From IMG/VR virus record IMGVR_UViG_3300025502_000012: a stretch of DNA of 20,000 nt. The stretch is one strand, 5' to 3'. The notes beneath the pieces were generated by a model that ran no database searches, had not been told where the DNA came from, and saw only the letters and a program-made list of their open reading frames with translations. Source of the DNA: an uncultured virus (IMG/VR IMGVR_UViG_3300025502_000012) (Duplodnaviria; Heunggongvirae; Uroviricota; Caudoviricetes). The position numbers and the translations under genes are program-made. Below are positions 2,534 to 19,999 of the stretch, in pieces; position 1 is the first letter of the stretch, and each line of letters starts with the position of its first letter.

Positions 2534-3109
2534 CTACACTATAACGCTACAATTAAACGCTAAGGATATTCTATCGCTATCAGAATTGTTTGTCATCACT
2601 CTGTGTGTCAAAAAAGACGGAAACAATATTAACTCATTAGCAATTGGATTGTATTCATAATCAATGGTATTGTACGGCGTGTAATTATCTACTACATTCT
2701 TACCAAAGAACATATCAAACATAGAAATCGGATTTGTAAAAACAATACCACCACTCCCTTTAGGAACACTTAAATAGAACACACCAGAGATTAACGACAA
2801 TGGGTGTCTGTGAGCTATATTATAAGAACCAGGAGGATTAATGTTAATCCATAAATTGTCTATCTTTGTAGGCATTTTCATTCCAAGTCTTTGACAATAC
2901 GCATTACAAGTATAATCAATATCTTTAAACAATTCATTTAACGGAAGATGAGCGCCGGTTAGTATTTGACTTTGATAACCACCATCATTAGATACGACAA
3001 CACTTGGATTGTTTCGTTTGTATTGAAGGACATAATCAATCATAGATTTGTTATCCAGATGATCAAACACTGTGTTGTATAATGGGGTTTTAAATATGTC
3101 TTGTATCAT
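2534..3109 (-). CDS. 2OG-Fe(II) oxygenase (TIGR02466-like)
   Basis: WININPPGSYNIAHRHPLSLISGVFY...LILFPSFLTHRV...RISLAFN (HxH...H...R). The start is more likely the ATG at 3109 (MIQDIFKTP) than 3130, because both promoters lie over or next to 3117-3145. Confidence 0.9.
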   Translation of the reverse strand: MIQDIFKTPLYNTVFDHLDNKSMIDYVLQYKRNNPSVVVSNDGGYQSQILTGAHLPLNELFKDIDYTCNAYCQRLGMKMPTKIDNLWININPPGSYNIAHRHPLSLISGVFYLSVPKGSGGIVFTNPISMFDMFFGKNVVDNYTPYNTIDYEYNPIANELILFPSFLTHRVMTNNSDSDRISLAFNCSVIV

Positions 3110-3116
3110 GTCGTCT

Positions 3117-3145
3117 ATTGTATCATACATTATTTATAAAGTCAA
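3117..3145 (-). promoter_or_regulatory. Extended -10 sigma70 promoter with nested late promoter
   Basis: TTGACT (3145-3140), 17 bp, TG-A-TACAAT (-10 at 3122-3117); TATAAATA at 3138-3131 in the spacer. Confidence 0.75.
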
Positions 3146-8812: not shown

Positions 8813-9244
8813 ATGAGAAAGTCATACCAAGGTTTATATCGCCCATCAAACCCTAAAAAATATGTGGGTGACCCGGCCAAAATAGTGTATCGTTCTTTAC
8901 TAGAGCGTAAGTTTATGCTACATTGTGACCGTAATCCAGACATAACTAATTGGGCTAGTGAAGAAGTATCTATTAGATACTTCAATCCTATTGATAAAAA
9001 GTACCACAAATACTATCCTGACTTCATTGTTAAGACTATTAAGGATAAGAAATTTGTTATAGAGATTAAACCATCTCGTCAATGTGTACCACCAAAACCT
9101 ACCAAAAAGAAAACAAGATCGTTTATGCGTGAGTCATTTGAATATATTAAAAATCAAGCGAAATGGAAAGCAGCACAAGCTTACTGTGAAGATAATAATG
9201 CTGAATTTAAATTGATTACTGAAAAAGACTTAGGCCCTTATTAA
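8813..9244 (+). CDS. gp4: Head completion nuclease gp4 (TnsA-like)
   Basis: YRPSNPKKYVGD...YRSLLERKFM...WASEE...YYPDF...IEIKP...NQAKWKAA...ITEKDL. Confidence 0.95.
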   Translation: MRKSYQGLYRPSNPKKYVGDPAKIVYRSLLERKFMLHCDRNPDITNWASEEVSIRYFNPIDKKYHKYYPDFIVKTIKDKKFVIEIKPSRQCVPPKPTKKKTRSFMRESFEYIKNQAKWKAAQAYCEDNNAEFKLITEKDLGPY

Positions 9245-10758
9245 GGCATTACATAGTTGAGATTTGTAAATGTATCGTCAACATTTTTATTCTGTACAAA
9301 TCCTACAGTTGTACTACCACTACTATTAACACTAGATTGATTTGTATTATTTAATATGACAGGTGGGACTTCGCCAGTATCATACATCTTAGATTGTTTC
9401 TGTTCTTGGAATAAAGTTTTAGCAGTTGACGCATCACCTGTTCCAGTTGCACCTGAACCTCTTAATTGGTTTCCAACAACTTGTCTATTCATCATTATTG
9501 CTGACTTGGTACCTTTGTCATAAACAACATTAGATTGTTCATTACCCATACCTGCGTTATCGCTAAATCCATTATCTTGTTCTCTTATTGGTTCCAGGTA
9601 TCCACCTTTATCTACAAACCCACTTTGTGTATTTGCTTCAACATCACCAGTAAAGTCTGCTGCACCTTTTTTAATTCTTTCTTGTTTTGCTGCTTCTTCT
9701 TTTTTCTTTTTCATTGTAGAAGTTTCCATTAATGTTCCAAAATCTCCCATGAAAGGTAATTTTCTTATTAATCCAATAACTGTATTAACTGCAATTTTAA
9801 AGAAATCTGTAAATGCCGTAAATGCTTTCTTAATAAAATCACCTATCATTTTAGGAACACCCATTATAAACTTACCTACAGCCATTATCTCGTCTTTGAA
9901 ATATACTATTCCAGCTATTACACCAGCAATCGCAAGACCTATTAATACTTTAGTTCCCATTAAAAATTTACCTATTGCCATTATACCTTTTTTAAAACCT
10001 TTTAGACCTTTCATCAAACCACCATCAGCAAAAAACTTACCAATCTTCATAATGTCTTTACCAAGGTCACCTATTGCCATAAATGCATCTCCAACAGCTA
10101 TGAATGGTGCTTTTAATTCTTCGTAAAATGTACTACTAGGTCCAAATCCAGTATCGCCATCTGGTTTCAATGGATTTAATGTTTTATCTTCTCTTTCAAT
10201 TTTTAACTTATCAGCTTGTATTTGTTTCTCGCCTTCTATTATTTCTTGTCTATCATCATTAGAAAGTTTTTCTTGCGATAACAGTTCGTCCATTCTAGCA
10301 ATAATTTTCTTTTCTCTATCTTCAGCAAGACTCTTATTCTTTTGTAATAACTCTGTTCGTTCTGCTATTTCTTTTTTAGTCAGTATGTGAGTTTCGTACA
10401 TAAACTCTCTACCTTGTTTATCAGCTTTAACCTCAGCAACAATATTACTAGCTCTAAGCGTTTCAACTTCTTTTATTTTATCATCTCTTTGGACTTGTGC
10501 TTCTTTTAGTGTTTTGGCTAGACCAGAATTAAAATCTCTTAAATCAATATCTAACTTGTCTAAAACCTTTTCTGTTTGAGCAAGTGCGTTCTCAAATCTA
10601 GTAATACTACCACTTGTAGCATCTTTCGTTATTTGAATTGCAATGTTTCTTACTTCTGTAGGTGATATGACAGTTTTCTGACCAGCAGCCACAGTCTTCA
10701 TAGTAGAAGACATTACCACTTTCATTAAACCTTTAATATCTGATTCTTTTATTGCCAT
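9241..10758 (-). CDS. Tape-measure / baseplate hub protein (gp29-like)
   Basis: 505 aa; coiled-coil N-terminus, G/A/F-rich helical middle with hydrophobic VLIGLAIAGVIAGIVYF, N/S-rich tail (PPVILNNTNQSSVNSS); located downstream of gp26/gp51. Confidence 0.6.
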   Translation of the reverse strand: MAIKESDIKGLMKVVMSSTMKTVAAGQKTVISPTEVRNIAIQITKDATSGSITRFENALAQTEKVLDKLDIDLRDFNSGLAKTLKEAQVQRDDKIKEVETLRASNIVAEVKADKQGREFMYETHILTKKEIAERTELLQKNKSLAEDREKKIIARMDELLSQEKLSNDDRQEIIEGEKQIQADKLKIEREDKTLNPLKPDGDTGFGPSSTFYEELKAPFIAVGDAFMAIGDLGKDIMKIGKFFADGGLMKGLKGFKKGIMAIGKFLMGTKVLIGLAIAGVIAGIVYFKDEIMAVGKFIMGVPKMIGDFIKKAFTAFTDFFKIAVNTVIGLIRKLPFMGDFGTLMETSTMKKKKEEAAKQERIKKGAADFTGDVEANTQSGFVDKGGYLEPIREQDNGFSDNAGMGNEQSNVVYDKGTKSAIMMNRQVVGNQLRGSGATGTGDASTAKTLFQEQKQSKMYDTGEVPPVILNNTNQSSVNSSGSTTVGFVQNKNVDDTFTNLNYVMP

Positions 10759-11060
10759 TAGTCTTTATTTTTTACTTTAGATGGTTTACCGTTTACATAT
10801 ATCGCAAACCAGCCAGCGCCTGCGCCAACTACAACAGATACTAAACCTGCTTGTGCGTTGTTAGGTGCTTCTAGTGCCATAAACCAAGTTATAACTTCCA
10901 TGAAAGCATAAGCATATGCTATCATCATTAATCTTGGTACAAATCTCCAATTAGAAAGCAATTCAGGTATTTCTACCTCTATGAAATGCCATAGTTGTTT
11001 TATGCCGTATTTAAATCCTGACCAACCTGATCCAAATATGTTTTTAATTTTTTGTATCAT
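10758..11060 (-). CDS. Small membrane protein (about 2 TM helices)
   Basis: RLMMIAYAYAFMEVITWFM and GLVSVVVGAGAGWFAIYV hydrophobic segments, basic C-terminus; GAGGAG SD; TAATG overlaps at both ends. Confidence 0.8.
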   Translation of the reverse strand: MIQKIKNIFGSGWSGFKYGIKQLWHFIEVEIPELLSNWRFVPRLMMIAYAYAFMEVITWFMALEAPNNAQAGLVSVVVGAGAGWFAIYVNGKPSKVKNKD

Positions 11061-11251
11061 TATTTCTCTCCTCTACTTCGTCTTTCGTTTTCGTCTTTAA
11101 TATGATTTATTAGCATTTGAACATATATATCTCGTTCCCAAGGCAACATATTCTCTACTTCATTCAAACTATATTTATGATGATGTAATAACGCAAAATT
11201 GACTTCAAAATAGGCCTCTAGGCTATTATGGGCGAGGCTGATTCGAAAAAA
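11060..11251 (-). CDS. gp51: gp51-like baseplate hub assembly domain, probably reached by -1 frameshift from gp26
   Basis: The -1 frame reads FFRISLAHNSLEAYFEVNFALLHHHKYSLNEVENMLPWERDIYVQMLINHIKDENERRSRGEK*; NFAL.HHKYSL.E.ENM.PWER.IY is the gp51-like signature of marine T4-like phages. Confidence 0.85.
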   Translation of the reverse strand, partial: FFRISLAHNSLEAYFEVNFALLHHHKYSLNEVENMLPWERDIYVQMLINHIKDENERRSRGEK

Positions 11252-11955
11252 TCATTCAGTCCAGTAAGCGTGACCTTACTTTTTACATTAGTCGTAGGGT
11301 TAGTCACCTCAAATTCGTGTCTAACTCTTGGCATAGTATCAAAAAATTTCTTAATTTTAGCAAAGCTTTCTTGCGATAAACTTTCAAAAAACTCCTTAAT
11401 TTCTTTCTCTGTACTATCCTTCGCTGGATATATTTTCTCGCCCTCAAATATGTGATCAACGCATGTGGCTAGCATATTAAATACTTGTTCCATATTCGCT
11501 TGATCTATATTTGTGCCTGACTTTAATACCTGCATCGTTGGATACTTCATCACTACACCTAAATTTCTACTCTCGTCCACAATAATTTTATTTGTGTGGT
11601 CATCATCTACTTCTACATTTACTTTTGTTAAGTCAATCTCAACATCAGCATAAGTCTTTTTGTCATCTGGACATAAAACTTTAAACTTTGATACTTCACC
11701 TACGGATTTTGCTCTTATGTTCAAAAAAAGATATTCTAAATCAAACATAGGTAATTCCTCAACATTTAGGGAACCATATGTACAAGTATCAACAATTTGT
11801 TTTGTTGCCTCATATATCTCAGATTCCTTTTGAGATTCCATAGCCATTAAAAGTATCTTTTCTTCTTTTACTAGAAATGGTCTGTATTTAACTTTTATAT
11901 CTTGTGATGGTAAAGTCAATTCATATCGTGGTGCTTCCACCTTTGGTAATGCCAT
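11218..11955 (-). CDS. gp26: Baseplate hub assembly chaperone gp26
   Basis: MALPK..P.YELTLPS...YRPFLVKEEKILLMA...FDLEYLFLNIRAKSVGE...CPDD...FFDTMP...GLNDFF. Confidence 0.92.
   Translation of the reverse strand: MALPKVEAPRYELTLPSQDIKVKYRPFLVKEEKILLMAMESQKESEIYEATKQIVDTCTYGSLNVEELPMFDLEYLFLNIRAKSVGEVSKFKVLCPDDKKTYADVEIDLTKVNVEVDDDHTNKIIVDESRNLGVVMKYPTMQVLKSGTNIDQANMEQVFNMLATCVDHIFEGEKIYPAKDSTEKEIKEFFESLSQESFAKIKKFFDTMPRVRHEFEVTNPTTNVKSKVTLTGLNDFFESASPIIA
11245..11251 (-). other. -1 ribosomal slippery heptamer T TTT TTC
   Basis: gp26 frame GAT TTT TTC GAA; X-XXY-YYZ pattern in the correct phase; TGA immediately upstream in the -1 frame. Confidence 0.75.
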
Positions 11956-11971
11956 TATATCTTACTCCTTA

Positions 11972-12958
11972 TTATAAATTTAACGGTGGTATTTTAAATG
12001 GTGGGAATACTCTTCCACCAGTTATTCTACCGATTGGCGCTCTTCTTCTTAAATCGTTAAGAACATCACGCCCTGCTCTTCTCAATTCTGGTGGTAGTCT
12101 TCCTAATAATCCACCAAATAGTCCACCTGCTGTTTTTACTTCAGGTGTTCCAAATTCTGATTGACCTAAGTCTATTTGACCTGCTTTGTCAATAAAGTAA
12201 TTAACCCAATATCTAAATCCAAATGTCACTTGGAAAGTTTGTACATTGTTGTTTTCATGTGAAAATTCAACTGCACTAATATTTTTTGGATAACAATCAA
12301 ATAGTTTAACTGCATATGTTATATCATCACGCTCTTGTCTGCTAGCAAAACTTCCTAACGCAAATATATTCATATCAGATACATAATTGTCGTAATAGTT
12401 TTTATTAAATGATGTTGTACTAAATGCTGCTTGTTGCCATAACTCAAAGTATGATCTTTCTCTCATAAACTTATCCAAGTAAAATGTTGCAGTTATATCT
12501 GCTGAGTTAAAATCTACTACATGACTTCTAGCTGGAGAATTTCCATGTCTAATTTCTTTTGTCACCACTTCTCTATTTGGCATAGCTATTTCAGCACAAA
12601 ATGCTCTAACTCTTTTACCATTCGCATTGTGTACTGCTTGTAATTCTTCTGACAATTTAAATGCTTCTATTCCTTCGCCAGTTCCTTTAACATTAACAGC
12701 TGTATCTTCACCACCAACACCTCCACCAAAAGATAATCCTCTTGGTAAGAAAAATTCTGTATAAAATCTTGCCTTACGAGCAAAGCCTTCAGCTTCATTT
12801 ACATAAGCTTGAAATCTACCCATAGTAGTTTCAGGATTACCACCAGCTTTCTGTCTTAATCTTGGATCTCGTTCTACATTGTCAAGTGAGCGATCTCTGG
12901 GTATACCTACTCGTATGTCGTATCCACCAATTCTTTTTCCTCCTCGTAAGATAGCTAT
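11972..12958 (-). CDS. gp54: Baseplate tail-tube initiator gp54 (tail-tube fold)
   Basis: ITATFYLDKFMRERSYFELWQ...YYDNYV...YAVKLFDCYPKNISAVEFS...FQVTFGFRYW. The frame is open 45 codons upstream of ATG 12823 to an ATA at 12958 preceded by AAGGGGG; exact start uncertain. Confidence 0.8.
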   Translation of the reverse strand: MAILRGGKRIGGYDIRVGIPRDRSLDNVERDPRLRQKAGGNPETTMGRFQAYVNEAEGFARKARFYTEFFLPRGLSFGGGVGGEDTAVNVKGTGEGIEAFKLSEELQAVHNANGKRVRAFCAEIAMPNREVVTKEIRHGNSPARSHVVDFNSADITATFYLDKFMRERSYFELWQQAAFSTTSFNKNYYDNYVSDMNIFALGSFASRQERDDITYAVKLFDCYPKNISAVEFSHENNNVQTFQVTFGFRYWVNYFIDKAGQIDLGQSEFGTPEVKTAGGLFGGLLGRLPPELRRAGRDVLNDLRRRAPIGRITGGRVFPPFKIPPLNL

Positions 12959-13488
12959 AGCTGTATCCCCCTTTCGACTCTCCAGTATTTTCTAGCAGTC
13001 GGTCTGCTTATATTTAAATCTTTACACATTTCTATTAAACTCTTATAAACTTTTCCTTTATAAATTCTTTCTTTGGCACCTATACCTAATTTGCCATACA
13101 TATGATTTCCTTCACCTGACATCTTTTCTGATGTATTTAATCTCTTTGCTCTTTCTATTGCGCTCTTACTCATATTCTCTTTCCACTCTTGTGTGAAAGT
13201 TCTTGTTGAACCTATCGCAACTGGTGTTTTTATTCCACCTGGCATAATATTGTAATAACCATACTTCTTAATATATTTATCTTCTTGTTCAAACGCATCA
13301 CTACCCTCATATATGGTTTTGACACTAAAATTCTCTTTGCCATATTTTCTTATAGCATTATGTAAAGGCCACTTCGCACCACTTCTAGCAGTTCCCAAAT
13401 GACATCTAAATCTTTTCATCATAGGTTGCGATGTAAATCCAACATAACTGTGGCTATTTAATTCGTTTGTAATCTTATATACTATCAT
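12955..13488 (-). mobile_element. Free-standing GIY-YIG homing endonuclease (Seg-like)
   Basis: IVYKITN...SYVGFT...KRF..H...LHNAIRKYGKENF...E...YN catalytic domain, a NUMOD3-like MSGEGNHMYGK motif and a C-terminal HTH (YKSLIEMCKDLNISRPT). Confidence 0.9.
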
Positions 13489-16169: not shown

Positions 16170-16423
16170 TCTTTTTCCCTCGTTATTAAATTATCTGGCT
16201 TATCAATTGGTTGTCCCATTCTATTAAACCATTTAGTATTAGCATGATAGACATGGTTTAAAGTACCATCAGCGTTCTTAATAGACTTCTTATCTATCTT
16301 ACCTTCATACTCCTTACCATTCTTCAATATTAGATTAAGATGTCCATATAAGTCACAATATAATCTATCAACAGCTTCACCATTTGGTCCAATCTTATTA
16401 CTCTCTGGTATAGTATTACTCAA
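16166..16423 (-). CDS. Hypothetical protein (85 aa)
   Basis: Co-oriented and overlaps both neighbours. Confidence 0.75.
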   Translation of the reverse strand: MSNTIPESNKIGPNGEAVDRLYCDLYGHLNLILKNGKEYEGKIDKKSIKNADGTLNHVYHANTKWFNRMGQPIDKPDNLITREKE

Positions 16424-17069
16424 TGTTCAACTCCAACTTTGTGACTTTCTTTTCTTGTCCTATACCACCAGTGACAAAATAGTTAGCACCAACTATGTAT
16501 CTTTGAAAATCACTATCGTTTGGAGTTGTCATATGTTCCATATGACCTGGTATAATAACAATATCACCTGTCTTAACTTTACAATTAAAACTCGTACTGT
16601 TAAATATGTTTCTATTAGTCTTGTAATTAAAATCTAAATTCCACTTTTCTTCTATAAAATTATTTCTAGTTGTTAATACTAAATCGCCACTATAACATCT
16701 AGCATAATATACTACACTAAAAATACAATTCTTGTGGTCATGTGGTGGGTGTGAGTTGCCTCTTGTAGTTTTTGCTGCCCAACTCGCTGACATAGTAAAT
16801 TTATTAAACATACCTAACACTTCATCTACATAAAAATTCTTATGTTTTTCAAAAACATTTTCTAACTCTTTAAAGTCATAGTCTTTGAAAAGCTTTTGTG
16901 AATTAGATACGACAGATATTTTTTTTCTATGTTCATCAAAATCCTCTGAGGGTGGATAAAACCATTCTACTTCTTTTAGTCTTTCAAACTCTTTTGTATC
17001 CATAACATAATCAGTATGAGTATGATATAGTGGAGTAGAAAATAATGGTATGATACTATTTGGATTCAT
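16416..17069 (-). CDS. 2OG-Fe(II) oxygenase (TIGR02466-like)
   Basis: PLFSTP...SWAAKT...HPPHDHKNCIFSVVYY...GDIVIIPGHMEH...RYIVGANYF. Confidence 0.88.
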   Translation of the reverse strand: MNPNSIIPLFSTPLYHTHTDYVMDTKEFERLKEVEWFYPPSEDFDEHRKKISVVSNSQKLFKDYDFKELENVFEKHKNFYVDEVLGMFNKFTMSASWAAKTTRGNSHPPHDHKNCIFSVVYYARCYSGDLVLTTRNNFIEEKWNLDFNYKTNRNIFNSTSFNCKVKTGDIVIIPGHMEHMTTPNDSDFQRYIVGANYFVTGGIGQEKKVTKLELNIE

Positions 17070-18529: not shown

Positions 18530-19999
18530 CTATTTAGTATAAATTTTATTACCAATAACCAAAACATCTATATCTGAATTTTCATAAAATGATTTTGTAT
18601 CAGTAGTATTACCTAAAATAGGTTTACCATTTATGTTAAAACTTGTATTTAATAAAACAGGACAGTTAGTTATATCATAAAAACTCTTTAATAATTTGTA
18701 AAATGGTCCATCTGTTGGTGTGACACTTTGAAATCTACAAGTGCCATCAATGTGTGTAATTGATTTTAAATTGTCCTTTGTTGTATTTCCAACATACAAC
18801 ATATGTGGATTATGAATATCTGTACCAAAATATTCTTTTTGATGTTCTTCCAATATAGAACAACCAAATGGTCTATAAACTTCTCGTTTTTTTATTTTGT
18901 TGACTTTTAACTTAGCATCTGGTGTAGTAGGATTCATTAATAGTGATCTATGACCTAAAGCTCTTGGACCAATCTCACCATTACCTTGATACCAAGCAAC
19001 AATCTTACCTTCTTTTAAATATTGAGCAACCTTTTCTATCACAGTGTCTTCTACAAATCCATCTGGTCTTTCATCTGTTTGACAATATGGAAAATTATTT
19101 AATTTAAATGGTTTTAACTTGTTCTTTATTCTTAAATACTCTATCGCACCTAAACTTAATCCCTCATCAGCACAATGTGGTGGGATTACCAAATTTTTGA
19201 ATTTATCTTTTAATGAAGTATTCCATATAACATTTTGAGCAACTCCTCCTGAATATGAGATTACATCATCATCATTAGCATATTCACTAAAGAAAGAAAC
19301 AAGTAAGTTATCTATTCTTTGATGAACAGTTTTTATCCAATCCAATGGTTTTAAATTACCAATTAAGGGATCGCCATGAAAATCAAACCATTCTTCAATA
19401 TCAAATATTCTATTAATACTATTCATATCAAATTGTTCTAAATGTTTTAGAAAATCATTATTAGTAGTTCCATATGATTGTAAACCCATAACCTTACCTG
19501 CATAGTCATCATCATGTTCAGATTGTACACCAAGGTATGCACCAGCTCTATTCATACCTTTACCTATTGAGCCAACTTCAGTTATCAATCCTTTTTTAAT
19601 TAATTTTCTATCTTTAAAAACGGTCCAAGATATATTATAATCACCATAACCATCTATTACTATATCTACTTTAGGAGTTTTTGTAGTGACAGGAAAACAA
19701 CTTAATGCATGAGCATAATGATGGTTAACTCTTACTACCTTATTTCTTACAGGTAGATAATTATAATCTACTGCAGGAAAAAAATCTTCGTTGTCTAGTG
19801 GTAGTTTGTGGACTTGCGAATCAATGATAATAGCAATTTCATCTATTTCATTATAATCTACATTCCATAAATCTTTTATTTCTTTTTGCCATTGCCAAAG
19901 ATTATTATAAGCATGATGTTTTATACCATGCTTTCTTTCTGATTTATAATAATGTAGATTAGTGCCGTCAAAATAAGAAATATTACTATCATGCGTACA
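18530..19999 (-). CDS. Carbamoyltransferase, NodU/CmcH family (5' end off the window)
   Basis: The frame is open to the window edge: HDSNISY, SERKHGIKH, HHYAHA, VIDGYGD, GKVMGLQSYG, SGGVAQN, EIGPRALGHRSL, KKRE.YRPF, HIDGTCRFQ, LLNTSFN. Confidence 0.95.
   Translation of the reverse strand, partial: CTHDSNISYFDGTNLHYYKSERKHGIKHHAYNNLWQWQKEIKDLWNVDYNEIDEIAIIIDSQVHKLPLDNEDFFPAVDYNYLPVRNKVVRVNHHYAHALSCFPVTTKTPKVDIVIDGYGDYNISWTVFKDRKLIKKGLITEVGSIGKGMNRAGAYLGVQSEHDDDYAGKVMGLQSYGTTNNDFLKHLEQFDMNSINRIFDIEEWFDFHGDPLIGNLKPLDWIKTVHQRIDNLLVSFFSEYANDDDVISYSGGVAQNVIWNTSLKDKFKNLVIPPHCADEGLSLGAIEYLRIKNKLKPFKLNNFPYCQTDERPDGFVEDTVIEKVAQYLKEGKIVAWYQGNGEIGPRALGHRSLLMNPTTPDAKLKVNKIKKREVYRPFGCSILEEHQKEYFGTDIHNPHMLYVGNTTKDNLKSITHIDGTCRFQSVTPTDGPFYKLLKSFYDITNCPVLLNTSFNINGKPILGNTTDTKSFYENSDIDVLVIGNKIYTK

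What the first reader, a model, noticed from the sequence alone, without database searches (positions are those of the whole stretch)
11060..11955. Probable programmed -1 frameshift fusing gp26 to the gp51-like domain: a lambda G/GT-style tail chaperone system in a T4-like phage
Seen: gp26 ends AAT GAT TTT TTC GAA...TAG, with an in-phase slippery heptamer T TTT TTC (11251-11245). In the -1 frame a TGA lies immediately before the heptamer, after which the frame is open for 61 codons encoding the gp51-like domain (HNSLEAYFEVNFALLHHHKYSL...MLPWERDIY). The first TTG and ATG in that frame come only after the NFAL..HKYS motif, so the N-terminal half of the domain has no standard start. A GCCUC/GAGGC stem begins 6 nt after the heptamer. 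Predicted products: 245 aa and about 298 aa. Known: tail assembly chaperones of lambda-like phages use a -1 frameshift between the tail-tube and tape-measure genes, whereas T4 encodes gp26 and gp51 as separate genes. Inference: the order gp54 (tube fold), gp26/gp51, gp29-like mirrors V-G-T-H, so gp26/gp51 would be the G/GT chaperones. I do not know of this being described for T4-like phages.
Basis: partly seen in the sequence, partly recalled or inferred. Interest (0 to 1): 0.88.

Follow-up and report, generated by a model that had tools for sequence, protein, structure and literature searches.

The report
Frameshift joining phage gp26 and gp51
One tail-assembly gene of this uncultured T4-like phage very probably makes a short and a long protein by slipping back one base on a conserved run of T's, as lambda does with G and GT; a 2022 paper that I could not read appears to have described this already for T4-like phages.

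Summary
On the minus strand, gp26 (11955..11218, 245 aa, PF12322) carries an in-phase T TTT TTC at 11251..11245. A TGA precedes it in the -1 frame, which is then open for 63 codons to 11060. That stretch matches the gp51 family (phrog_634, 2e-27) and residues 200-244 of T4 gp51. Predicted products are 245 and 298 aa.

It is not chance or an assembly error:
- All 244 of 244 related loci holding both parts place the gp51-like domain in the -1 frame, behind a run of 6-8 T's in the same phase.
- The stretch with no start codon evolves as coding sequence.
- An independent metagenome contig has the same six T's.

T4 gp51 is a gp26-type domain plus this C-terminal domain in one ORF. T4 has two PF12322 genes; four complete relatives have one. 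The N-terminal 90 residues of the gp26 model best match HK97 and YqbN tail assembly chaperones (Z 6.1-7.3).

The G/GT-type reading is supported. I favour ribosomal slippage (0.7) over transcriptional slippage (0.2).

Novelty is low. [quoted passage not shown] This scan already holds 569 notes on the same topic.

The parts
11218..11955 (-). gp26-type ORF, the short (G-like) product, 245 aa. The last 8 residues after FF are a non-conserved 0-frame tail.
   Evidence: PF12322 T4_baseplate 1e-63 and phrog_150 3.3e-70. AlphaFold2 model has mean pLDDT 87.1, with residues 240-245 below 50.
11245..11251 (-). Slippery heptamer T TTT TTC, in phase with the gp26 frame.
   Evidence: Sequence. Columns T31-T36 are invariant in 97 of 97 aligned junctions. 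The run is in the same phase in 244 of 244 loci.
11252..11254 (-). TGA in the -1 frame directly before the heptamer, which closes that frame upstream.
11060..11251 (-). -1 frame extension of 63 codons (FF plus 61) and the TAA stop. It encodes the gp51-like C-terminal (T-like) domain. The long product is 298 aa.
   Evidence: phrog_634 2e-27 and phrog_150 positions 231-280 of 282. BLASTP to T4 gp51 residues 200-244, E 1e-5. hhalign probability 71.8%, E 3.5e-5. Third codon positions vary most in the -1 frame. Helical model, pLDDT 77.4.
11214..11238 (-). Candidate stimulatory stem-loop. The arms are GCCUC (11238-11234) and GAGGC (11218-11214), with a 6-nt spacer after the heptamer. The 3' arm overlaps the 0-frame TAG.
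   Evidence: Present in the MFE fold. Weak in this window (z -0.49 and -1.79). Across 96 representatives the 60 nt downstream are more stable than synonymous recodings (mean z -1.96). The Leu codon in the 5' arm is CTC in 155 of the 174 unique junctions with Leu there, against 5.3% background.
11972..12958 (-). gp54-like tube-fold gene upstream, the V-like neighbour. It probably starts at ATA 12958-12956, not at the ATG 12823 given by the ORF list.
   Evidence: phrog_45 tail tube 3.8e-30. PF06841 8.9e-6, 26.0 bits, below the 28.2-bit cut-off. 87% identity over all 328 residues of the L006 relative.
10758..11060 (-). 100-aa ORF of unknown function between the chaperone gene and the tape-measure-like gene.
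   Evidence: phrog_10198 1.5e-16, function unknown.
9241..10758 (-). 505-aa tape-measure-like protein, the gp29/H-like neighbour.
   Evidence: phrog_5448 tail length tape measure protein, 1e-5. The gene in the same position in phiM12 is annotated 'similarity to phage tape measure proteins'.

Best explanation
This is the tail assembly chaperone gene of a T4-like phage, expressed as two proteins by a programmed -1 ribosomal frameshift.

Most ribosomes read gp26 to its TAG and make the 245-aa short form. This form is G-like: a chaperone-fold N-terminal domain followed by the rest of PF12322. A minority slip back one base. With tRNA-Phe on UUU in the P site and UUC in the A site of U UUU UUC, both tRNAs re-pair with UUU UUU. 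Reading then continues with CGA AUC ..., adding a 61-residue helical domain and giving a 298-aa long form. The long form is GT-like and equivalent to T4 gp51.

Shown here: the signal, its conservation, the coding signature of the startless stretch, the domain equivalence with T4 gp26 and gp51, and the chaperone-like fold.

Inferred by analogy with lambda G/GT (recalled from the lambda literature): the gp26 part holds the tape measure protein, the extra domain brings in a tube-type protein during hub and tube initiation, and the long form is the minor product. A downstream hairpin probably stimulates the slip. It is strong in the cyanophage clade and weak in this window.
For: 1. Signal: an in-phase T TTT TTC, a TGA closing the -1 frame directly upstream, and a 63-codon open -1 frame.
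2. Conservation of phase: of 252 loci, 244 hold both parts, and all 244 have the C-domain in the -1 phase. None is in frame and none is +1. The run is 6 T's in 212 loci, 7 in 27 and 8 in 5, and its first T is always at codon position 3. The other loci are 7 cut off by contig ends and T4.
3. Selection on nucleotides at the slip site: the codon before FF takes seven forms (GAT, AAT, AGT, TCT, GCT, CAT, ACT), and all 184 of 184 unique junctions end it in T. A six-T run is followed by C in 162 of 162. Background in the same ORFs is 22.7% TTC among Phe codons and about 73% T at two-fold sites.
4. The startless stretch is translated: entropy at -1-frame codon positions 1, 2 and 3 is 0.88, 0.73 and 1.43 between the run and the usual ATG. 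Only 4 of 184 junctions have a start codon upstream of the run in the -1 ORF. The first ATG is at codon 20 or later in 161 of 184.
5. Equivalence with T4: gp51 is PF12322 over residues 1-201 plus a C-terminal part aligning to this domain, while gp26 is PF12322 only. T4 has two PF12322 genes. Mosig, S-RSM4, Melnitz-1 and ValKK3 have one each.
6. Chaperone identity: only 3 of 48,161 PDB chains reach Z of 5 or more against the gp26 model. They are 3fgx_B (7.3), the HK97 tail assembly chaperone 2ob9_B (6.8, rmsd 4.2, 83 aligned) and YqbN 3klu_A (6.1), all on model residues 1-95. The gene sits between a tube-fold gene and a tape-measure-like gene, and the same order is seen in Vibrio, Aeromonas, Sinorhizobium and Pseudomonas phages.
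7. Ribosomal rather than transcriptional: the 60 nt downstream fold better than synonymous recodings (mean MFE -11.0 against -6.4 kcal/mol, mean z -1.96, 46 of 96 below -1.64). The 45 nt upstream do not (mean z -0.33, 13 of 96). The Leu codon in the 5' arm is CTC in 155 of the 174 junctions with Leu there, against 5.3% background.
8. Not an assembly error: a contig from an independent marine run spans 10960-12100 with no gap.
Against: - No experiment: nothing here shows the long protein or its amount.
- A transcript with one extra U gives the identical protein, so the phase and conservation evidence does not separate the two mechanisms.
- No consensus structure: RNAalifold finds none across the 97 junctions (0 pairs). 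The stems differ in register between clades, and the stem of this window is not better than synonymous recodings (z -0.49).
- The 96 representatives are related, so the z-score counts are not independent.
[quoted passage not shown] One citing paper reads this as the two-gene solution of T4, but it may also argue against ribosomal slippage for loci like this one.
- The chaperone-fold match is of middling strength (Z below 8), and Foldseek found nothing at E of 0.001 or below.
Confidence: 0.7

Rival explanations
1. The same two proteins are made, but by transcriptional slippage. RNA polymerase adds one U on the run of six T's in a fraction of transcripts, and ribosomes read those mRNAs without slipping.
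For: The signal is a pure homopolymer of 6-8 T's in 244 of 244 loci. The T at the wobble position before FF (184 of 184) lengthens the run as well as completing a heptamer. The product would be identical. The title of Vladimirov et al. [quoted passage not shown]
Against: The run is held at exactly six T's followed by C in 162 of 184 unique junctions, although TTT is the commoner Phe codon (77%). A longer run would slip more. The nucleotide-level constraint lies downstream of the run, where an RNA structure can act on a ribosome but has not yet been made when the polymerase is on the run. No excess structure lies upstream (z -0.33). From recall, productive slippage by bacterial polymerase usually needs longer runs or an upstream hairpin. 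The RNA-library contig that crosses the run has no indel there, but contigs drop rare variants, so this says little.
Confidence: 0.2
2. There is no recoding. gp51 is a separate small protein of 27-47 aa started at an internal ATG, as most database records annotate it.
For: Records annotate gp51 as 44-55 aa from an ATG, GTG or TTG. An ATG lies at codon 20-21 in 128 of 184 unique junctions. In this window, however, the first ATG is at codon 34. Internal initiation could occur in addition to recoding.
Against: The 20 or more codons upstream of that ATG are conserved as protein, with third positions varying most, and they align to the interior of T4 gp51. Only 4 of 184 junctions have any start upstream of the run. 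In this window a start at the first ATG would give 27 aa lacking over half of the domain. Several records annotate no gp51 at all although the frame is there.
Confidence: 0.05
3. It is a sequencing or assembly error in a homopolymer. The true gene has seven T's and is a plain in-frame gp51-like fusion.
For: Homopolymers are error-prone, and T4 gp51 shows that an in-frame long form can exist.
Against: No locus of 244 is in frame, and these include isolate genomes of several phage families. Runs of 7 and 8 T's arise by substitution, not insertion, and keep the -1 phase. An independent marine contig has no gap over 10960-12100. A search for longer proteins sharing words with the domain found none.
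Confidence: 0.01

Closest known systems
[quoted passage not shown]
   Same: The same gene family (gp26/gp51), the same assignment as tail assembly chaperones, the same short-plus-long logic, and, according to PMC12846349, the same poly-T -1 signal at the end of the N-terminal gene.
   Different: I cannot tell whether pelagiphage-like marine phages such as this one were covered, whether that paper favours a non-ribosomal mechanism for such loci, or whether the downstream codon bias and hairpin signal seen here were reported.
Phage T4 gp26 (208 aa) and gp51 (249 aa), hub assembly chaperones (Leiman et al. 2010, PMC3004832, Table 2 passage)
   Same: gp26 is PF12322 alone, and gp51 is PF12322 plus the C-terminal domain. 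That is the same short/long pair as the 245-aa and 298-aa products predicted here.
   Different: T4 encodes the pair as two divergently oriented genes with no slip site between them. This phage and four complete relatives have a single PF12322 gene and need recoding to make the long form.
Lambda G/GT and the conserved -1 frameshift of tail assembly genes of long-tailed phages (Xu, Hendrix and Duda 2004, Mol Cell 16:11; seen only in reference lists, content recalled)
   Same: Position between the tube gene and the tape measure gene, a second ORF in the -1 frame without its own start, an in-phase slippery heptamer, and a long form that shares the whole short form.
   Different: There is no detectable sequence similarity to G or T. 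The short form is about 100 residues longer than lambda G. The neighbour is a tube initiator (gp54-like), not the major tube protein. In T4 the proteins were known as baseplate-hub factors.
HK97 tail assembly chaperone (PDB 2ob9) and B. subtilis YqbN (PDB 3klu)
   Same: Residues 1-90 of the gp26 model superpose with Z 6.8 and 6.1 (rmsd 4.2 and 4.4, 83 and 85 aligned). They are among the only three chains with Z of 5 or more.
   Different: Sequence identity is 8-11%, the Z-scores are middling, and gp26 has a further 145 residues or so that those proteins lack.
Phage T7 gene 10A/10B -1 frameshift at G GUU UUC (named in the PMC12846349 passage; the sequence itself is recalled)
   Same: The slip uses a UUU UUC-type Phe site near the end of the upstream ORF in a phage structural gene.
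   Different: It concerns a capsid protein rather than a chaperone, and the heptamer differs at its first positions.

Membership tests
Tail assembly chaperone genes with the conserved -1 frameshift (lambda G/GT type) | The gene lies between the tail tube gene and the tape measure gene. | tested here: met
   A tube-fold gene (phrog_45, 3.8e-30) lies upstream. A tape-measure-like 505-aa gene (phrog_5448, 1e-5) lies downstream, after a 100-aa ORF. The order is the same in six isolate phages.
Tail assembly chaperone genes with the conserved -1 frameshift (lambda G/GT type) | The second reading frame overlaps the end of the first in the -1 phase and has no start of its own. | tested here: met
   244 of 244 loci are in the -1 phase. 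A start codon upstream of the run occurs in 4 of 184 unique junctions. In the window a TGA lies directly upstream.
Tail assembly chaperone genes with the conserved -1 frameshift (lambda G/GT type) | An in-phase slippery heptamer X XXY YYZ lies in the overlap. | tested here: met
   T TTT TTC at 11251..11245. It is in phase in 244 of 244 loci.
Tail assembly chaperone genes with the conserved -1 frameshift (lambda G/GT type) | The N-terminal domain has the tail assembly chaperone fold. | tested here: met
   VIA-align gives 3fgx_B Z 7.3, 2ob9_B (HK97 chaperone) Z 6.8 and 3klu_A (YqbN) Z 6.1. These are the only 3 of 48,161 chains with Z of 5 or more. Caveat: Z is below 8, and Foldseek found nothing at E of 0.001 or below.
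Tail assembly chaperone genes with the conserved -1 frameshift (lambda G/GT type) | Both products are made in a fixed ratio, and both are needed for tail assembly but absent from virions. | not testable with these tools
   This needs protein analysis and genetics. For T4, gp51 is reported as required but absent from the particle (PMC3004832 passage).
Tail assembly chaperone genes with the conserved -1 frameshift (lambda G/GT type) | The short part binds the tape measure protein and the extension binds the tube protein. | not testable with these tools
T4 gp26/gp51 family (PF12322 T4_baseplate; phrog_150 and phrog_634) | PF12322 match above the curated cut-off. | tested here: met
   215.4 bits against a cut-off of 24.5, covering residues 9-238.
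T4 gp26/gp51 family (PF12322 T4_baseplate; phrog_150 and phrog_634) | A C-terminal domain of the gp51 type follows the PF12322 domain. | tested here: met
   It is present only through the -1 frame: phrog_634 2e-27. It aligns to T4 gp51 residues 200-244, BLASTP E 1e-5 and hhalign E 3.5e-5.
Transcriptional slippage sites | A homopolymer run long enough for polymerase slippage, or a shorter run with an upstream hairpin (criteria recalled). | tested here: inconclusive
   The run is 6 T's here and 6-8 in relatives. No excess structure lies in the 45 nt upstream (mean z -0.33). No raw RNA reads were available.

The most novel reading that the evidence does not exclude
The most novel reading still open concerns the signal and its history, not the existence of the frameshift.

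- The one-gene-plus-slip arrangement would be the ancestral state of all T4-like phages. It is seen here in Kyanoviridae, KVP40-like and Aeromonas Straboviridae, Sinorhizobium phiM12 and a Pseudomonas phage. The two genes of T4 would be a later duplication that made the slip dispensable.
- The slip would be tuned by a clade-specific downstream hairpin that selection maintains through an extreme codon bias (CTC for Leu in 155 of 174 junctions against 5% background).
- The 61-residue helical extension would be the part that couples the tape-measure/hub complex to the first tube-like ring. That would give T4 gp51, long called a hub 'catalyst', a concrete job.

I could not establish whether any of this is already in the unread 2022 paper.
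Probability: 0.3. Interest if true: 0.5.

Novelty: already known. Interest (0 to 1): 0.3.

Why it matters
The tail-chaperone frameshift is among the most conserved recoding events in phages, and T4 was long the textbook phage without an identified chaperone pair. Loci like this one show the same short/long logic in the large marine T4-like group.

In practice, public annotation misses it. The domain is found in 556 phage records. In the nine isolate records I inspected, gp51 is either called as a 44-55 aa fragment from an internal start or not called at all. No record showed a joined CDS. Gene callers and proteomics databases therefore lack the roughly 298-aa product.

What remains open is experimental proof, the efficiency of the slip, and whether the ribosome or the polymerase slips. 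As a discovery the value is low, because the idea appears to be in print and this scan has noted it many times.

Tried and rejected
- RNAalifold on 97 junctions of 126 nt gave no consensus pair. The stems sit in different registers in different clades, so I used per-sequence folding against synonymous recodings instead.
- Rfam, with E up to 1 over 10900-11500, gave no match.
- A search of the 5.8-billion-protein collection for longer proteins sharing words with the 63-aa domain found none at E of 0.001 or below. This is weak evidence only, because distant fused forms such as T4 gp51 share no 5-residue words.
- Profiles of gp26 (A2) and of the C-domain (A3) against PDB sequences found nothing below E 0.08.
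- Foldseek against the PDB found nothing at E of 0.001 or below.
- A complex prediction of the C-domain with the gp54-like protein returned no answer: score 0.00 against a mark of 0.32, and controls were not run. This is evidence neither for nor against binding.
- Sequencing runs: all 24 runs offered are kept as contigs, not raw reads, so the fraction of RNA molecules with seven U's could not be measured. The two RNA-library runs laid hold only small parts. One contig of a roughly 91%-identical relative crosses the run without an indel there. This does not show transcription and cannot show rare variants.
- The window's own assembly is not held. The nearest record is a 20.8-kb fragment, so the count of PF12322 genes was taken from complete relatives instead.
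- Vladimirov et al. 2022 could not be read. Full-text searches for gp26 + gp51 + frameshift; 'baseplate hub assembly catalyst' + frameshift; cyanophage + 'programmed ribosomal frameshift' + baseplate; and 'programmed ribosomal frameshift' + 'baseplate hub' found no paper describing this slip. The 2022 paper surfaced only through the search.
- I did not fold the full 298-aa product, because that would have needed a joined sequence. The two parts were folded separately.
Full report
**What is there.**
- All features lie on the minus strand. The ORF 11955..11218 encodes a 245-aa protein that matches PF12322 (T4_baseplate, 1e-63) and phrog_150 ('baseplate hub', 3.3e-70).
- Its 3' end reads AAT GAT TTT TTC GAA TCA GCC TCG CCC ATA ATA GCC TAG. 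T TTT TTC at 11251..11245 is therefore an in-phase X XXY YYZ heptamer.
- In the -1 frame, TGA (11254-11252) lies directly before the heptamer. The frame is then open for 63 codons to TAA at 11062-11060.
- This 63-aa stretch matches phrog_634 ('baseplate hub assembly catalyst', i.e. gp51) at 2e-27. It also matches positions 231-280 of the 282-position phrog_150 profile. Some members of the gp26 family therefore carry this domain in one chain.
- The first TTG and ATG in the frame are codons 28 and 34, after the NFAL..HKYS motif.
- The products would be 245 aa and 237 + 61 = 298 aa.

**Is it more than chance?** I collected 252 loci: the window, nine annotated-region loci from isolate phages, T4, and 241 IMG/VR loci found with three gp26 queries.
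- An iterated profile search of all plus-strand frames found gp26 in 251 loci and the C-domain in 245 (the count includes T4's locus, whose hit was not followed up).
- Seven loci end at a contig edge just after gp26, and T4 was too distant for this profile. All remaining 244 have the C-domain in the -1 phase. None is in frame and none is +1.
- All 244 have a run of T's in the overlap: 6 T's in 212, 7 in 27 and 8 in 5. The first T is always at the third position of the codon before FF.
- Among 184 unique 126-nt junctions, that codon is GAT, AAT, AGT, TCT, GCT, CAT or ACT. Five different amino acids are encoded, and the codon always ends in T. A six-T run is followed by C in 162 of 162.
- In the same gp26 ORFs, TTC makes up only 22.7% of Phe codons. 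T is about 73% at comparable two-fold sites and about 38% at four-fold sites.
- Runs of 7 and 8 T's arise by substitution, not insertion, so the phase is kept.
- The loci are related, so these are not 184 independent trials. They do fall into 96 groups below 90% identity and cover several phage families.

**The startless stretch is translated.**
- Between the run and the usual ATG, column entropy at -1-frame codon positions 1, 2 and 3 is 0.88, 0.73 and 1.43. This is the pattern of a coding region.
- Only 4 of 184 junctions have any ATG, GTG or TTG upstream of the run in the -1 ORF. The first ATG is at codon 20 or later in 161 of 184.
- Records nevertheless annotate gp51 as a 44-55 aa protein from an internal start, or not at all.

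**Relation to T4.**
- In T4, genes 26 and 51 are adjacent but divergent.
- T4 gp26 (208 aa) is PF12322 over residues 1-206. T4 gp51 (249 aa) is PF12322 over residues 1-201 followed by about 48 more residues.
- gp51 spans phrog_150 positions 13-280, while gp26 spans 14-235.
- The window's -1 peptide (residues 2-47) aligns to gp51 residues 200-244 by BLASTP (E 1e-5) and as a 52-sequence profile (hhalign probability 71.8%, E 3.5e-5).
- T4 thus encodes the short and long forms as two genes. Whole-record searches find two PF12322 genes in T4 and one each in Mosig, S-RSM4, Melnitz-1 and ValKK3. The one-gene phages can make a gp51-like protein only by recoding.

**Is it a tail assembly chaperone?**
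- Going down the minus strand, the gene order is: gp2, a GIY-YIG homing endonuclease, a gp54-like tube-fold gene, gp26 with its -1 extension, a 100-aa ORF, a 505-aa tape-measure-like gene, then gp48-like, wedge, hub and gp5-like genes.
- The same order (gp4, gp2, tube-like, gp26, gp51 frame, tape-measure-like, gp3) is seen in Vibrio, Sinorhizobium and Pseudomonas phages and, from gp2 onwards, in the Aeromonas record.
- An AlphaFold2 model of gp26 is confident (pLDDT 87.1, pTM 0.82). The eight residues of 0-frame tail after FF have low confidence (residues 240-245 below pLDDT 50).
- Aligned to 48,161 PDB representatives, only three chains reach Z of 5 or more. They are 3fgx_B (7.3), the HK97 tail assembly chaperone 2ob9_B (6.8, rmsd 4.2, 83 residues) and YqbN 3klu_A (6.1), all on model residues 1-95.
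- A passage of PMC9603447 treats HK97 gp13 and YqbN as members of the chaperone family.
- The Z-scores are middling, and Foldseek alone gave nothing significant. I read this as support, not proof.
- The C-domain folds as a small helical unit (pLDDT 77.4).
- A table in Leiman et al. 2010 lists T4 gp26 and gp51 as hub assembly chaperones. A passage of the same paper says gp51 is required for assembly but absent from the particle (PMC3004832, passages).

**Mechanism.** A -1 slip of two tRNA-Phe on U UUU UUC and a transcript with one extra U give the same protein. Phase and conservation therefore cannot separate them. Three observations lean towards the ribosome.
- First, the 60 nt after the slip site fold more stably than synonymous recodings drawn from each locus's own codon usage (mean -11.0 against -6.4 kcal/mol, mean z -1.96, 46 of 96 below -1.64). 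The 45 nt before it do not (mean z -0.33).
- Second, the Leu codon 9-11 nt after the heptamer is CTC in 155 of the 174 unique junctions that have Leu there, against 5.3% background. The next conserved Leu uses five codons freely. In cyanophages this CTC lies in a predicted 9-bp stem beginning 7 nt after the heptamer (z -3 to -5). In this window it lies in the GCCUC/GAGGC stem 6 nt after it.
- Third, the run is held at six T's plus C, although TTT is the commoner Phe codon.
- Against this, RNAalifold finds no common structure over all clades. The window's own stem is unremarkable (z -0.49 against recodings, -1.79 against shuffles). No Rfam family matches.
- I put ribosomal frameshifting at 0.7 and transcriptional slippage at 0.2.

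**Not an artefact.** Seventeen runs offered hold half or more of the stretch's sampled words. A 1,877-nt contig of an independent marine study covers 10960-12100 with one substitution and no gap. Only contigs were available, so rare RNA variants could not be counted.

**Prior knowledge.**
- Four full-text searches aimed at this slip found no paper describing it.
- A fifth search led to the PRFect paper. A passage there says that some T4-like phages carry a short gene and a longer fusion gene instead of frameshifting, citing Vladimirov, Gautam and Davidson 2022 (PMC10885494).
- A passage of PMC12846349 cites the same paper for poly-T -1 frameshift signals in the TAC-N genes of T4-like phages.
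- The 2022 paper itself is not held. I saw its title only.
- On this basis both the chaperone assignment and the poly-T signal are in print, so I class the finding as already known.
- This scan also holds 569 earlier notes on the same topic in at least 503 genomes. The eight shown read it the same way, and one states that no published report was found.

**Verdict.** What is left is an annotation gap that is probably widespread, and an untested mechanism.

Noticed in passing
window 12955-12991 (minus strand); gp54-like gene 11972-12958: The gp54-like tube-initiator gene has ATA (12958-12956) where its 87%-identical relative L006 has the ATG start (MAILRGGKRIGG...). The next ATG lies 45 codons inside the conserved protein. 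A GIY-YIG homing endonuclease ORF (13488..12955) ends with a TAG that overlaps this ATA (ATAG), and a GGGGGA lies 7-9 nt upstream. Either the gene starts at a non-canonical ATA, possibly coupled to termination of the endonuclease ORF, or the endonuclease insertion cost it its start.
   Followed up: partly
window 12955-13488 (minus strand): A free-standing GIY-YIG homing endonuclease (PF01541 4.4e-6, phrog_314 2.3e-26) sits between gp2 and the gp54-like gene. The relatives Mosig and ValKK3 have no gene at this position.
   Followed up: no
window 10758-11060 (minus strand): A 100-aa ORF (phrog_10198, function unknown) lies between the chaperone gene and the tape-measure-like gene. Its ATG overlaps the TAA of the -1 extension. 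Small ORFs occupy the same position in Mosig, Melnitz and phiM12.
   Followed up: no
window 2534-3130 and 16416-17069 (minus strand): Two 2OG-Fe(II) oxygenase genes (phrog_81, 1.2e-41 and 5.3e-31) and a Nol-like carbamoyltransferase (18530-19999, phrog_1601, 2.9e-142) lie among structural and replication genes. These are auxiliary genes typical of marine T4-like phages.
   Followed up: no
Nine isolate-phage records and 556 phage records overall: In the nine isolate records inspected, gp51 is either missing (ACG-2014e, S-CAM8, Aeromonas AsFcp_2) or annotated as a 44-55 aa fragment from an internal start. No inspected record carried a joined (frameshift) CDS for gp26-gp51. The domain itself is found in 556 phage records.
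   Followed up: partly
L087, L171, L172 (Vibrio KVP40-like phages): gp26 is 282 aa in these phages, and the gp26 profile hits it in two pieces. This suggests an insertion in the middle of the protein. The slip site and -1 phase are kept.
   Followed up: no
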